Source of the DNA: Octopus vulgaris
Taxonomy: Eukaryota
DNA: 64,000 nt
Direction: 5' to 3'
Assembly: GCA_951406725.2 (NCBI GenBank)
Contig: OX597835.1
Coordinates: 35,154,001-35,218,000 of the forward strand
The notes below the pieces were generated by a model. The model had not been told where the DNA came from. It worked only from the letters and a program-made list of their open reading frames with translations, and made no database searches. Positions within the stretch are counted from its first letter, which is position 1; each line of letters opens with the position of its first letter. Shown here piece by piece: positions 3,681-62,235 of this stretch. Made by a program: the position numbers and the translations under genes.

Positions 3681-3957
3681 GAGTAAGAGAAAATAAACAG
3701 ATTGAGAGAATGACAAAACTTGTATATTTCAGCAGTCCAACCATGACGAATGGTTGGAAATACGACGGGCTTCTTTTAGTTTCCATCTAGCATATCCACT
3801 CACAAAGCTTTCGTCAACGCGAAGCTATATCAGAAGACACATGCCCAAGATACCTCACAGTGGAACTGAACCCGGAGCCATGTGGATGGGAAGCAAGCTT
3901 CTTACCACACAGCCACTCCTGCACCTACATAAAGTATTTTATTACGCTCAACGTGGG

Positions 3958-3999: not shown

Positions 4000-4289
4000 A
4001 TATTGTTATATTTCGGAATGGTCATATTGCCAGTTTAGCCAATAAAAACACACGCACTATATATTTGGTGTTATTTTGCTTCAGTGATATTTATTTTTTA
4101 CATTAATCTTAATCTTATTTCGGCCAAAGTTCTTTCGTCACACTCCTGTGACCGCATCAGTGGTCCTTTGTTTTCTTCTCACTTACTTGTGTCTCTCCAT
4201 ATCACTGAAGCAAAATAACACCAAATATATAGTGCGTGTGTTTTTATTGGCTAAACTGGCAATATGACCATTCCGAAATATAACAATAT
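4000..4289. repeat. 91-bp inverted repeat (4000-4090 / 4199-4289) with an HHR-like motif in the spacer
   Basis: The arms are reverse complements by eye. The spacer's minus strand (4122-4166) reads ggacca-CTGATGC-g-gtcaca-ggag-tgtgac-GAAA-gaac-TT-tggcc. Confidence 0.85.
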
Positions 4290-4374
4290 CTGTTTCAACA
4301 CACGACTTCACATAAAAAATCTTGCACAACAAATATTTAAACGTACATATATATATATGTATCTCTCTCTCTCT

Positions 4375-4425
<51 letters not shown>

Positions 4426-4427
<2 letters not shown>

Positions 4428-4848
4428 GGGCTACAAACTACAGTAGCATCCACCCTTTTGGGTTAGCCATATTCAAATGGCAAATATGCATCACGATGTG
4501 TTACCGCTACTGTTTATAACTCGCTCTGAGATTTATCATTGTTTGATTTCACTTTTTCAATATCAGTGTCAATCGGACACTGGAAAAAGTATATGTATTT
4601 GTGAAGGAATCTGACTTTTCGTCGACAACCATGATTGTCACACGCTGATGAAAGGTAAACACCTTGAAACTCGGGTACGTGTGTATCATGTGTTGAAGAC
4701 GGGGAGGATGACTCCCCTTCACAAATACTGACAGGACACAGATAGTGTGTCTATAGCCAGCGGGAGGAGGTGTCTTCCTGGGGCTACAAACTACAGTAGC
4801 ATCCACCCTTTTGGGTTAGCCATATTCAAAAGGCATATATGCATCACG
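4426..4848 (+). mobile_element. Retrozyme-like element: 353-nt unit plus 70-nt terminal redundancy, inserted in (TA)n
   Basis: Direct repeats at 4426-4495 and 4779-4848, one internal hammerhead, no meaningful ORF. Confidence 0.7.
4639..4683 (+). ncRNA. Type I hammerhead ribozyme with canonical core
   Basis: cacacg-CTGATGA-aaggt(aaac)acctt-GAAA-ctcggg-TA-cgtgtg: stem I 6 bp, stem II 5 bp, near-palindromic stem III, GUA cleavage triplet. Confidence 0.85.
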
Positions 4849-5009
4849 TTATGTATATATGTATATATATATATATATATGTAGAAGGTTGAAAAGGAAT
4901 ACACGAGTTGATATATACGGAAAAAGTTAAGGTAGAAAATGCTACAATAATTTTATAAAAACATTTCAGAAAAATATGGAACGCTCCACGAATTTGTGAG
5001 TCATATATA

Positions 5010-5522: not shown

Positions 5523-5575
5523 TATGTATATAATATAATATAATATAATATAATATAATATATATATATATATAT

Positions 5576-5738
5576 GCGCTGGAGTCGCTGTGTGGTAAGT
5601 AGCTTGCTTACGAACCATATAGTTCCGGGTTCAGTCTCACTGCGTGGCACCTTGGCCAAGTATCTTCTACTATAGCCGCAGGCCAACCAAAGCCTTGTGA
5701 GTCGATTTGGTAGACGGAAACTGAAAGAACCCTGTCGT
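5576..5738 (+). mobile_element. SINE family A head
   Basis: A-box-like and B-box-like segments (ggttcagtc) and the CORE-like ggcaccttggccaagt. Confidence 0.8.
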
Positions 5739-5765
5739 ATATATGTTTATACATATATATATATG

Positions 5766-14813: not shown

Positions 14814-15039
14814 CGACGGGTTCCTTTCAGTTTACGTCTACAAAGCTTTGGTCGGCCCGAGGCTATAGTAGAAGACACTTGCCCAAGGTGCCAATAAGTG
14901 GGACTGAACCTGGAACCATGTGGTTGGGAAGCGAGCTTCTTGTTACACAGCCACTCCTGCGCCTTATATGTATATTCTTTTACTTGCTTCAGTCATTTCA
15001 CTGCGGCCATGCTGGTGCACCACACTAAAATGCTTTAAT

Positions 15040-16782
15040 CGAAGAACTCGACCCCAGGACTTATTCTTTGTAAGCCTACCACTTATTAATATCAGGATCT
15101 TTTGCTTTTAAGGGTTTTTAGTCGAGCAACTCGACTCCAGGACTTATTCTTTGTAAGCCTAGCACTTATTCTATCAGGATATTTTGCTTTTAAGGGTTTT
15201 TAGTCGAACAACTCGACTCCAGGACTTATTCTTTGTAAGCCTAGCACTTATTCTATCAGGATATTTTGCTTTGAAGGGTTTTTAGTCAAACAAATCGACC
15301 CCAGGACTTATTCTTTGTAAGCCTAGCACTTATTCTATCAGGATATTTTGCTTTTAAGGGTTTTTAGTCGAACAACTCGACTCCAGGACTTATTCTTTGT
15401 AAGCCTAGCACTTATTCTATCAGGATATTTTGCTTTGAAGGGTTTTTAGTCGAACAACTCGACTCCAGGACTTATTCTTTGTAAGCCTAGCACTTATTCT
15501 ATCAGGATATTTTGCTTTTAAGGGTTTTTAGTCGAACAACTCGACTCCAGGACTTATTCTTTGTAAGCCTAGCACTTATTCTATCAGGATATTTTGCTTT
15601 GAAGGGTTTTTAGTCAAACAAATCGACCCCAGGACTTATTCTTTGTAAGCCTAGCACTTATTCTATCAGGATATTTTGCTTTGAAGGGTTTTTAGTCAAA
15701 CAAATCGACCCCAGGACTTATTCTTTGTAAGCCTAGCACTTATTCTATCAGGATATTTTGCTTTTAAGGGTTTTTAGTCAAACAAATCGACCCCAGGACT
15801 TATTCTTTGTAAGCCTAGCACTTATTCTATCAGGATATTTTGCTTTGAAGGGTTTTTAGTCAAACAAATCGACCCCAGGACTTATTCTTTGTAAGCCTAG
15901 CACTTATTCTATCAGGATATTTTGCTTTGAAGGGTTTTTAGTCAAACAAATCGACCCCAGGACTTATTCTTTGTAAGCCTAGCACTTATTCTATCAGGAT
16001 ATTTTGCTTTGAAGGGTTTTTAGTCAAACAAATCGACCCCAGGACTTATTCTTTGTAAGCCTAGCACTTATTCTATCAGGATATTTTGCTTTTAAGGGTT
16101 TTTAGTCGAACAAATCGACCCCAGGACTTATTCTTTGTAAGCCTAGCACTTATTCTATCAGGATATTTTGCTTTGAAGGGTTTTGAGTCGAACAAATCGA
16201 CCCCAGGACTTATTCTTTGTAAGCCTAGCACTTATTCTATCAGGATATTTTGCTTTGAAGGGTTTTTAGTCAAACAAATCGACCCCAGGACTTATTCTTT
16301 GTAAGCCTAGCACTTATTCTATCAGGATATTTTGCTTTGAAGGGTTTTTAGTCAAACAAATCGACCCCAGGACTTATTCTTTGTAAGCCTAGCACTTATT
16401 CTATCAGGATATTTTGCTTTGAAGGGTTTTTAGTCAAACAAATCGACCCCAGGACTTATTCTTTGTAAGCCTAGCACTTATTCTATCAGGATATTTTGCT
16501 TTGAAGGGTTTTTAGTCGAACAAATCGACCCCAGGACTTATTCTTTGTAAGCCTAGCACTTATTTTATCAGGATCTTTTGCTTTGAAGGGTTTTGAGTCG
16601 AACAAATCGACCCCAGGACTTATTCTTTGTAAGCCTAGCACTTATTCTATCGGGATCTTTTGCTTTTAAGGGTTTTTAGTCGAACAAATCGACCCCAGGA
16701 CTTATTCTTTGTAAGCCTAGCACTTATTCTATCGGGATCTTTTGCTTTTAAGGGTTTTTAGTCGAACAAACCGATCCCAGGA
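15040..16782. repeat. Tandem array of an 82-bp unit (~21 copies) derived from the SINE family A body
   Basis: Unit cttattctttgtaagcctagcacttattctatcaggatattttgctttgaagggtttttagtcaaacaaatcgaccccagga; period 82 (15881 to 15963). Confidence 0.95.
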
Positions 16783-16934
16783 CGTATGTTTTTTAAAGCT
16801 TGGTACTTACTGTGTCTGTCTCTTATGCTGAACCGTTAAGTTACGAGGACGTAAACACACCAACACCAGTTGTCAAGCGGTGGGGTGGGGGGACAAACAC
16901 AGTGAATATGGTCATGGACGAGAGATGGTCGTGG

Positions 16935-39461: not shown

Positions 39462-39887
39462 GATTCAACGGTTTTGAAGTTTTTTCTAGCTGTGTCATAT
39501 GAAATTGTCACCCATAATTATGACCCTAGTATCGATCTATTGCATTTCAATCTCTTTTAGGGTTAGGGTTAGTTAGGGTTAGGGTTAGGGTTAGGTGTGG
39601 GGGGAAGGGTATCTTTTTTTTCTTCAGAAATGTAAATAAACCCAATCCGTTTCTTAAACGAGGGACATATTCATACGGCACAGAATGTTGTTTACCTCAA
39701 TAGACGTCAGTGATTGGTTGAAATTGCAGAAAAAACAACAACAAATATCTTACAAACTATAGAATTTTCTCAATAAAGCCAAGAGAAAAAGATGTTTTAT
39801 AAACACATTCTACCAGTATACGAAGTTTAAATTTTTTTAGTTACCTAGAAATTATGTTAAAAACTGCCGCTCAAACCGAAAAGATCC
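39462..39887. mobile_element. MITE copy with internal TTAGGG repeats (one TIR degraded)
   Basis: Reverse-complement homologue of 46708-47136. Confidence 0.75.
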
Positions 39888-60797: not shown

Positions 60798-62235
60798 CCA
60801 CACACACACATCAATACAGGAAATTGAAAATATTTTGGGTATTAGTTATTCAACATTACACGTGTTTCATTTGCTAATAGGATTTACAACATTGTACATG
60901 TAGTAGAAGACATGTAAGATATCTCCTGTTAGAAATTCTTCAGATAGAACATCAAATAATATATCAGAATAGTTAGCGTAGTATAGAACACTTCTCATTC
61001 TCTAAGTTAGGATCAACGAAGATAAGAATGAACGTAGACGACTAAGATAGAGAATGTTAAATCCAGACTAGACTGCAACGGACCTCCTGAGAAGTCAAGG
61101 AACTGCACGCTAGTCTCTATGATGCCTGAAACAAACAATAGAATACATCTGTATAGTTAGTATAGTATAGTTAGTATTTCAAGAATGAATAGTAGCGAAA
61201 TGCTAAGTGGTGATAATATATGTTACCGTAAATTAAAATGTAATATTCTTTGGTAATTAGTTGCAATAGAGATACTGAGGAACAAGCTTCTTCCTTTTGA
61301 ATAAGAATGTTCTGGTCCTCAGAATAAAACTGACACCATCTAAAAATGAAGCTTCGGGTTAAATCTACTGGGAATCATCTCTATGTGTTTTTATTCCTAA
61401 ATCGTGAATGATATTCATACAGAGTTTCCCTACATTGAAACTAACCAAAAGTGTATTCGCTTTTGTTGCTTTGGGAAGATGAGACAAAACTAAAAAAAAA
61501 AACACCAATGTCCTCTTGAATGAAAATAAATCTGAAAGGGTACAGTAGTTTGAAAATAATTCTTTCTACTACAGGCATAAGGCCTGAAATAATGGGTGGG
61601 GGTAGAAATGGGGACTAGTCGATTTCATTGCCCCGAGTACCCAGTCGGTGCTTGTTTTATTGACTCCGAAAGTATGAAAGGTAAAGTCGACCACGGCGGC
61701 ATTTAAACTCAGTATATAAAGAAATGCCATTACGCTTTATCACCGGCGTGCTAACGCTTCTACTATTTCTAATTGCTTAGACTATTATTGGTAGAAGCTG
61801 CCAGGTCAGCAATGATAAGATTAAGCTGTTGATATTTTGGTTTGAACAATTTGACATATTCACCACTTTGTTCTCTCACCACATTATGAGTATCCGTCGA
61901 CTTCTTTATTTTCCAGAGTTCATAAAATCTTGTAGCTTTTATTTCAAAATTGATAAGGCCATTCCTTTCTTTTGTTTAAAGCCACAAAGCCACATTACTG
62001 AGCTGCTTCATAATGCGATGCTTTATATTTTTCAGGTATTTCTGAATAAAATTTGTATCTTTTAACTCTTCTTCAGCTTGACATAATGCATGCTAAATAT
62101 TATCGGGATTGATAATATTTAGCATCCATTATGACAATAGATCCAATTTATCTGTCTGTTTGGTGTCCATTGTTTCATTCTTTTCTAGATTTTTAACCGC
62201 AGACTTTTCCGATTTCGTAATATTCTGTTTGACAA

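What the first reader, a model, noticed from the sequence alone, without database searches (positions are those of the whole stretch)
4426..4848. Retrozyme-like 353-nt hammerhead unit with terminal redundancy, suggesting a circular RNA template
Seen in sequence: a non-coding 423-bp insert in (TA)n whose first 70 bp recur 353 bp later, with a canonical type I hammerhead in the middle (4639-4683, GUA site). Established: metazoan non-LTR retrozymes are small units of a few hundred nt with type I HHRs that form circRNAs, and Penelope-like elements carry HHRs in their pLTRs. Inference: 1.2 circularly permuted units is what reverse transcription around a 353-nt circle would leave, so this may be an undescribed mollusc retrozyme family.
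Basis: partly seen in the sequence, partly recalled or inferred. Interest (0 to 1): 0.88.

Follow-up and report, generated by a model that had tools for sequence, protein, structure and literature searches.

The report
Retrozyme with Penelope-type insertion footprints
This is one truncated copy of an abundant 353-base, protein-free jumping repeat that carries a predicted self-cutting RNA motif; its kind (a retrozyme) is known, and its insertions suggest that a Penelope-type enzyme copies one RNA unit, probably a circle, again and again.

Summary
In detail: 4426-4497 recurs 353 bp later and a type I hammerhead (HHR) lies at 4639-4683. The insert is one 5'-truncated copy of a large non-coding family: 1,349 intact HHR motifs genome-wide, subfamilies about 68-100% identical, arrays up to 5 HHRs with a 353-bp period. 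Copies are not randomly permuted. Of 206 arms, 196 end at one of two fixed 3' points about 45 nt apart, and 59 of 64 two-armed inverted insertions use one of each. Most sit in microsatellites. This is the Penelope-like element (PLE) 'tail' signature. Units within one insertion share their haplotype (96/96 tandem and 49/49 inverted comparisons versus 65% between insertions, youngest subfamily), and 13 private variants recur in every unit. That points to one monomer copied repeatedly, most likely a circle. The HHR shows compensatory changes. Circular RNA and cleavage were not shown, and no autonomous PLE sharing sequence was found. Verdict: new member of a known kind (non-LTR retrozyme; mussel examples of 350-390 bp are published). 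This scan already reported similar families on other DNA, including this genome.

The parts
4377..4425 (.). (AT)n target microsatellite, upstream
4426..4850 (+). Single-armed, 5'-truncated insertion of the 353-nt retrozyme family (1.2 units)
4426..4778 (+). One full 353-nt unit (arbitrary phase, u1-u353)
   Evidence: same period in arrays
4440..4513 (+). Predicted three-hairpin domain (u15-88) containing the short 3' end point (u72); candidate RT-recognition site (inferred)
   Evidence: fold; ends
4498..4543 (+). Internal copy of the 'tail' (u73-118) that lies between the family's two 3' end points
4639..4683 (+). Type I hammerhead motif, predicted cleavage after GUA at 4677; self-complementary stem III
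4779..4850 (+). Partial second unit u1-72 ending at the family's short 3' end (inferred RT start)
4851..4881 (.). (TA)n target microsatellite, downstream

Best explanation
The insert is a 5'-truncated copy of a non-coding 353-nt hammerhead repeat family that is likely a non-autonomous retrozyme mobilised by a Penelope-like (PLE) reverse transcriptase from one monomeric, probably circular, RNA. Shown: copy number, tandem 353-bp units without ORF, two fixed 3' ends, variable 5' ends, inverted two-armed insertions, microsatellite targets, target duplications, HHR conservation, shared haplotype within insertions. Inferred steps: (1) an array with two or more HHRs is transcribed; (2) the HHRs cut, likely as a pair through the palindromic stem III, releasing a 353-nt monomer; (3) a host ligase circularises it (by analogy with PMC7229834); (4) a PLE protein nicks AT-rich DNA and starts cDNA internally at u72 and/or u115-118, 173 and about 217 nt downstream of the cut site; (5) it reads through the HHR junction for up to about 4 further turns and stops at random; (6) cDNAs begun on the two target strands join to give inverted insertions. 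The window copy is a one-HHR daughter that cannot release a monomer alone.
For: Copies: 130 exact cores, 1,349 relaxed intact HHRs, 2,725 matches to a 21-nt motif, controls 0. Ends: 103 arms end at u58-78 (70 exactly at u72), 93 at u105-125, 10 elsewhere, of 206; 59 of 64 inverted pairs join one short and one long end. This matches the two RT start sites and tail shown in vitro for an Anolis PLE (PMC11167929) and the tail/inversion pattern in PMC8557442. 48 of 63 two-armed insertions have a microsatellite flank; 12 of the other 15 have flanking direct repeats of 9-15 nt (lengths include a few element bases, one is a T run). Single template: at polymorphic sites units agree 96/96 (tandem) and 49/49 (inverted) versus 65% between insertions in the youngest subfamily, and 236/255 and 376/412 versus 57% in the window's subfamily. 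Variants private to one insertion and present in all its units: 5 in 24 and 8 in 67 insertions; two occur in 5 of 5 units of L202. 98 arms cross the cut site once and 12 twice, with no gap column at the site in 121 aligned segments. HHR under constraint: stem II pair 1 A-U 82 / G-C 28, pair 2 A-U 120 / G-C 30, triplet GUC 82 / GUA 73, of 160 motifs. Intact RT + GIY-YIG PLEs with (AT)n targets and two 3' ends occur in the genome.
Against: No autonomous PLE shares sequence with the unit (47 GIY-YIG loci, 20 loci), out of 6,136 candidates, so the helper is unidentified. In vitro the Anolis PLE needs no HHR cleavage and prefers unprocessed RNA (PMC11167929), and 8 of 9 Xenopus retrozyme dimers did not cleave (10.64898/2026.07.22.740005). 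The predicted minimum-energy fold pairs the core CUGA with stem III, an inactive shape. Stem II pair 1 is unpaired in 46 of 160 motifs. Pair counts are not independent (one array gives many), and 19 of 255 tandem comparisons disagree in the older subfamily, many at one CpG site. DNA alone cannot prove circularity.
Confidence: 0.72

Rival explanations
1. Same non-autonomous PLE-mobilised family, but the template is linear: either an uncleaved multimeric read-through transcript of a homogeneous source array, or a cleaved linear monomer that the RT re-enters by precise template jumps. No circle is needed.
For: All end and target signatures fit equally. [quoted passage not shown] A source array that is itself homogeneous would pass its variants to all units.
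Against: 5' truncation shortens arrays each generation, so length must be regenerated from a monomer at some stage. Private variants recur in all units. No junction indels and no haplotype mixing in the youngest subfamily, which jumps between molecules would tend to give. 5' ends do not pile up at the cut site: 6 of 206 in u241-260, 4 of them at u252-254. Long-term HHR conservation argues that cleavage matters.
Confidence: 0.2
2. The unit is the pseudo-LTR of an autonomous PLE and the copies are its 5'-truncated remains.
For: The ends are PLE-like. Such remnants exist: window 4000-4345 is one, and two of its relatives have a GIY-YIG domain upstream. One locus (L220) joins the unit directly to a PLE ORF fragment.
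Against: Arrays repeat head to tail at 353 bp with no ORF. PLE coding sequence lies in 7 of 194 unit loci (6 distinct), and by coordinates none has the unit as the downstream repeat of an ORF. L220 looks rearranged: its PLE 3' end is short of that family's normal ends.
Confidence: 0.05
3. Arrays grew after insertion by DNA-level duplication or gene conversion (satellite-like), which would also make units alike.
For: Proposed for vertebrate retrozymes (10.64898/2026.07.22.740005, discussion).
Against: Inverted arms share the haplotype too. Stepwise duplication should leave variants in a subset of units: 1 such against 32 single-unit variants in the youngest subfamily, 15 against 181 in the window's. 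Arrays are short, dispersed and begin at the same 3' points.
Confidence: 0.03

Closest known systems
Metazoan non-LTR retrozymes (Cervera and de la Pena 2020, PMC7229834; parts 2-4 of 6 read plus passages; supplement not read)
   Same: Canonical type I HHR in 150-450-bp tandem units, GC under 50%, no ORF, long TSDs; mussel units 350-390 bp, axolotl 330/350 bp; 2-bp stem III with tetraloop and dimer cleavage in axolotl.
   Different: There cleavage and circles were shown but PLE mobilisation was only proposed. Here the reverse holds: insertion footprints and single-template evidence, no RNA data. I did not compare sequences with the mussel elements.
Vertebrate retrozymes as non-autonomous PLE derivatives (Li, Clavereau, Pollet, bioRxiv 10.64898/2026.07.22.740005; parts 1-3 of 5 read, supplements closed)
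   Same: Co-occurrence with PLEs; monomers, dimers and multimers.
   Different: Their link rests on co-distribution and pLTR homology (24 of 57 Xenopus families). No mollusc is named among the groups reported in the parts read. Here no pLTR homology was found, and the link comes from insertion ends.
Penelope-like elements: Poseidon PAc (Frangieh et al. 2024, PMC11167929, parts 1-2 of 4 read); Neptune/Naiad structure (Craig et al. 2021, PMC8557442 and its preprint, passages only)
   Same: Two internal RT start sites downstream of the HHR bounding a tail, AT-rich or (TA)n targets, inverted 5'-truncated partner, partial tandems.
   Different: No ORF; tail 43-46 nt rather than 30-40; a canonical rather than minimal HHR; head-to-tail monomer arrays. 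Non-autonomous multicopy head-to-tail PLE derivatives are noted for Chlamys elements in PMC8557442.

Membership tests
non-LTR retrozyme | Canonical type I HHR in each unit | tested here: met
   Rfam models did not score it
non-LTR retrozyme | 150-450-bp unit in tandem copies, dispersed | tested here: met
   353-bp period, up to 5 HHRs in L202
non-LTR retrozyme | Non-coding, GC under 50% | tested here: met
   GC 43%; longest ATG ORF 34-46 aa in three arrays or copies
non-LTR retrozyme | TSDs longer than 4 bp where visible | tested here: met
   12 of 15 non-microsatellite two-armed insertions have 9-15-nt repeats
non-LTR retrozyme | Self-cleavage of the RNA | not testable with these tools
   only conservation and covariation
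non-LTR retrozyme | Expressed as monomeric circular RNA | tested here: inconclusive
   only assembled contigs of runs guessed to be RNA were available
PLE-mobilised non-autonomous element | Two fixed 3' ends (tail), 5' truncation, inverted partner, AT-rich targets | tested here: met
PLE-mobilised non-autonomous element | Sequence homology to an autonomous pLTR | tested here: inconclusive
   none in 67 PLE loci of about eight Neptune-like families; most of 6,136 candidates unseen; Naiad and Poseidon families not targeted
autonomous PLE (pLTR remnant) | Repeat flanks an RT + GIY-YIG ORF | tested here: not met
plant LTR retrozyme | Type III HHR in LTRs, 4-bp TSD | tested here: not met
   type I topology; longer TSDs

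The most novel reading that the evidence does not exclude
An independent, viroid-like RNA lineage, not a recent pLTR derivative. It has kept its fold, its paired-cleavage hammerhead and its two start points through about 30% sequence divergence by structurally mimicking a PLE RT-binding site. Both arms of each insertion are written from the same RNA circle by a PLE dimer starting at two sites: rolling-circle target-primed reverse transcription recorded directly in the genome.
Probability: 0.3. Interest if true: 0.75.

Novelty: new member of a known kind. Interest (0 to 1): 0.48.

Why it matters
The published retrozyme life cycle (circle, then PLE reverse transcription, then tandem insertion) has its RNA half shown and its integration half proposed. 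This family records the integration half: two mapped start points, TSDs and one template per insertion. A young subfamily (0.8% from its majority sequence) and intact 781-aa PLE ORFs coexist in the genome, so the helper and the circle-versus-linear question can be tested with an existing in vitro PLE assay. It is not a new class, and this scan has seen the same pattern in other families.

Tried and rejected
Rfam: no HHR hit at gathering or E up to 10. RNA evidence: no RNA holder listed on record; 8 lays of 7 runs guessed to be RNA, all contigs, showed no joints and no start/end pile-ups, which is no evidence either way. Random circular permutation: rejected. Pile-up of 5' ends at the cut site: not seen; the u1-20 bin is inflated by BLAST splitting at the unit boundary. 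Helper search: GIY-YIG family search, DNA comparisons and two motifs from contig loose ends gave only older subfamilies of the unit. The possible chimera L220 is one ambiguous locus. Alignment had poorly chosen coordinates and was not used. Folding z-scores are strong on both strands (-6.6 and -5.7), so they show hairpin richness, not strand function. Sequence look-up in earlier findings was blank.

Full report
Observation. Window 4426-4501 recurs at 4779-4854 (period 353, 95%) between two (TA)n tracts. The type I hammerhead reads CACACG-CTGATGA-stem II-GAAA-short stem III-GTA-CGTGTG at 4639-4683, with the predicted cut after 4677 (unit position u252). It is the only such motif in the window by my descriptor; Rfam does not score it. 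The unit is 43% GC and non-coding. A 2.8-Gb genome in about 30 large contigs, rich in microsatellites, suggests an octopus; that label is my inference and that of earlier scan notes, and was not tested.

A large family. The unit gave 2,460 candidates in the own genome; the 40 scored had full-length matches of 94-100%. Exact pattern counts, each with a reversed control of 0: 130 for the window's HHR core, 1,349 for a relaxed intact HHR, 2,725 for a 21-nt motif near the 3' end. Subfamilies run from 72-100% identity down to about 68%. A younger subfamily, 87% identical to the window unit and 0.8% from its own majority, keeps the 353-bp period and forms arrays of up to five HHRs (L202, 1.8 kb). 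The window's subfamily is 2.3% from its majority. All samples are partial: about 190 loci, chosen by score or as the first places listed, mostly on contig C1.

Ends are fixed, not permuted. In 142 de-duplicated insertions with 206 arms, 103 arms end at u58-78 (70 exactly at u72), 93 at u105-125 (modes 115 and 118) and 10 elsewhere; 5' ends are scattered. Of 64 two-armed inverted insertions, 59 pair a short with a long end. In the motif-sampled set 35 of 75 insertions are two-armed and 11 of 110 arms exceed one unit. 48 of 63 two-armed insertions have a microsatellite flank, and 12 of the other 15 show flanking direct repeats of 9-15 nt. The youngest subfamily has the same two ends. This is the PLE pattern: an optional tail at one end and an inverted 5'-truncated partner (PMC8557442, passages), with the tail shown in vitro to lie between two internal RT start sites (PMC11167929, parts 1-2 of 4). 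The window's 'terminal redundancy' is therefore a short-end start at u72 plus a 5' truncation 425 nt later.

One template per insertion. Overlapping units within an insertion are closer than units from different insertions. At polymorphic sites, agreement is 96/96 for tandem and 49/49 for inverted pairs versus 65% between insertions in the youngest subfamily (24 insertions; L207 dropped as a duplicate of L206). In the window's subfamily it is 236/255 and 376/412 versus 57% (67 insertions; 17 duplicate loci dropped). Many disagreements there fall on one CpG site (u65). Variants private to one insertion but present in all its units number 5 and 8; two are in 5 of 5 units of L202. Pairs are not independent. 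98 arms cross the cut site once and 12 twice, without a gap at the site in 121 segments, and 5' ends do not accumulate there. A monomer is thus being re-read. A circle is the simplest reading; precise re-entry on a linear monomer or a homogeneous linear multimer is not excluded.

The ribozyme is under constraint. Among 160 parsed motifs (selected by requiring the core, so core conservation is not tested by this count; a few are spurious), stem II pairs 1 and 2 swap between A-U (82, 120) and G-C (28, 30), though pair 1 is unpaired in 46. The triplet is GUC in 82 and GUA in 73. Stem III stays self-complementary, including a different palindrome in the oldest subfamily, and is predicted to pair with itself at -8.9 and -10.7 kcal/mol. 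This suggests dimer cleavage as in axolotl (PMC7229834). The predicted minimum-energy fold sequesters the core, which could protect a circle or could mean poor cleavage. Activity is untested.

Helper. The genome holds many PLEs: 6,136 GIY-YIG candidates, with repeated intact 781-aa frames carrying RT, a CxxC linker and GIY-YIG ('Neptune-like' follows the linker criterion in PMC8557442). They end in (AT)n and show two 3' ends about 40 nt apart. None of 67 PLE loci shares terminal sequence with the unit. PLE coding sequence lies in 7 of 194 unit loci; by coordinates these look like neighbours in shared targets, apart from one ambiguous junction (L220). The helper is inferred, not identified.

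RNA. Only assembled contigs from runs guessed to be RNA were available. They cannot show ends, strand or circles.

Comparison and novelty. It meets every DNA-level criterion of a non-LTR retrozyme (PMC7229834, parts 2-4 of 6 read). Mussel retrozymes of 350-390 bp are published, and a 2026 preprint argues that animal retrozymes are non-autonomous PLE derivatives (10.64898/2026.07.22.740005, parts 1-3 of 5; its supplements were closed, and those of PMC7229834 were not read, so either might list a cephalopod). Searches for retrozyme, hammerhead or ribozyme with octopus or cephalopod found no description of such a family; the giant squid paper only counts 235 hammerhead hits (PMC6962438, passage). 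This scan has 45 notes on similar families, two of the eight shown from this genome with 534-536-nt units. I formed my reading before seeing them and do not count them as support. Verdict: new member of a known kind with unusually direct evidence on how it integrates; interest 0.48.

Noticed in passing
window 4000-4345: Perfect 91-bp inverted repeat plus a 55-nt tail in (AT)n: a two-armed remnant of a different, low-copy PLE family (22 candidates). It has its own HHR-like motif on the minus strand near 4155, and two relatives have a divergent GIY-YIG domain upstream.
   Followed up: yes
L220:1026-2800 (G000:C1:71843600-71846600): A young unit array is joined directly to an inverted PLE ORF fragment: possible template switch between parasite and helper, or a deletion.
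   Followed up: partly
window 61281-61969: Minus-strand fragment similar to PLE proteins.
   Followed up: no
window 15034-16787: 82-bp tandem array, 21.4 copies, 97% matches; the unit resembles part of a dispersed repeat seen in many flanks.
   Followed up: no
window 3760-3944 and 5556-5740: 185-nt inverted pair at 76%, probably two copies of a common short interspersed repeat.
   Followed up: no
window 39557-39595: Short internal TTAGGG run.
   Followed up: no
L091-L097, L094:268-3971: Young Neptune-like family with many intact 781-aa RT-EN frames preceded by an overlapping upstream ORF of about 480 aa, and a degenerate HHR-like motif in its pLTR.
   Followed up: partly
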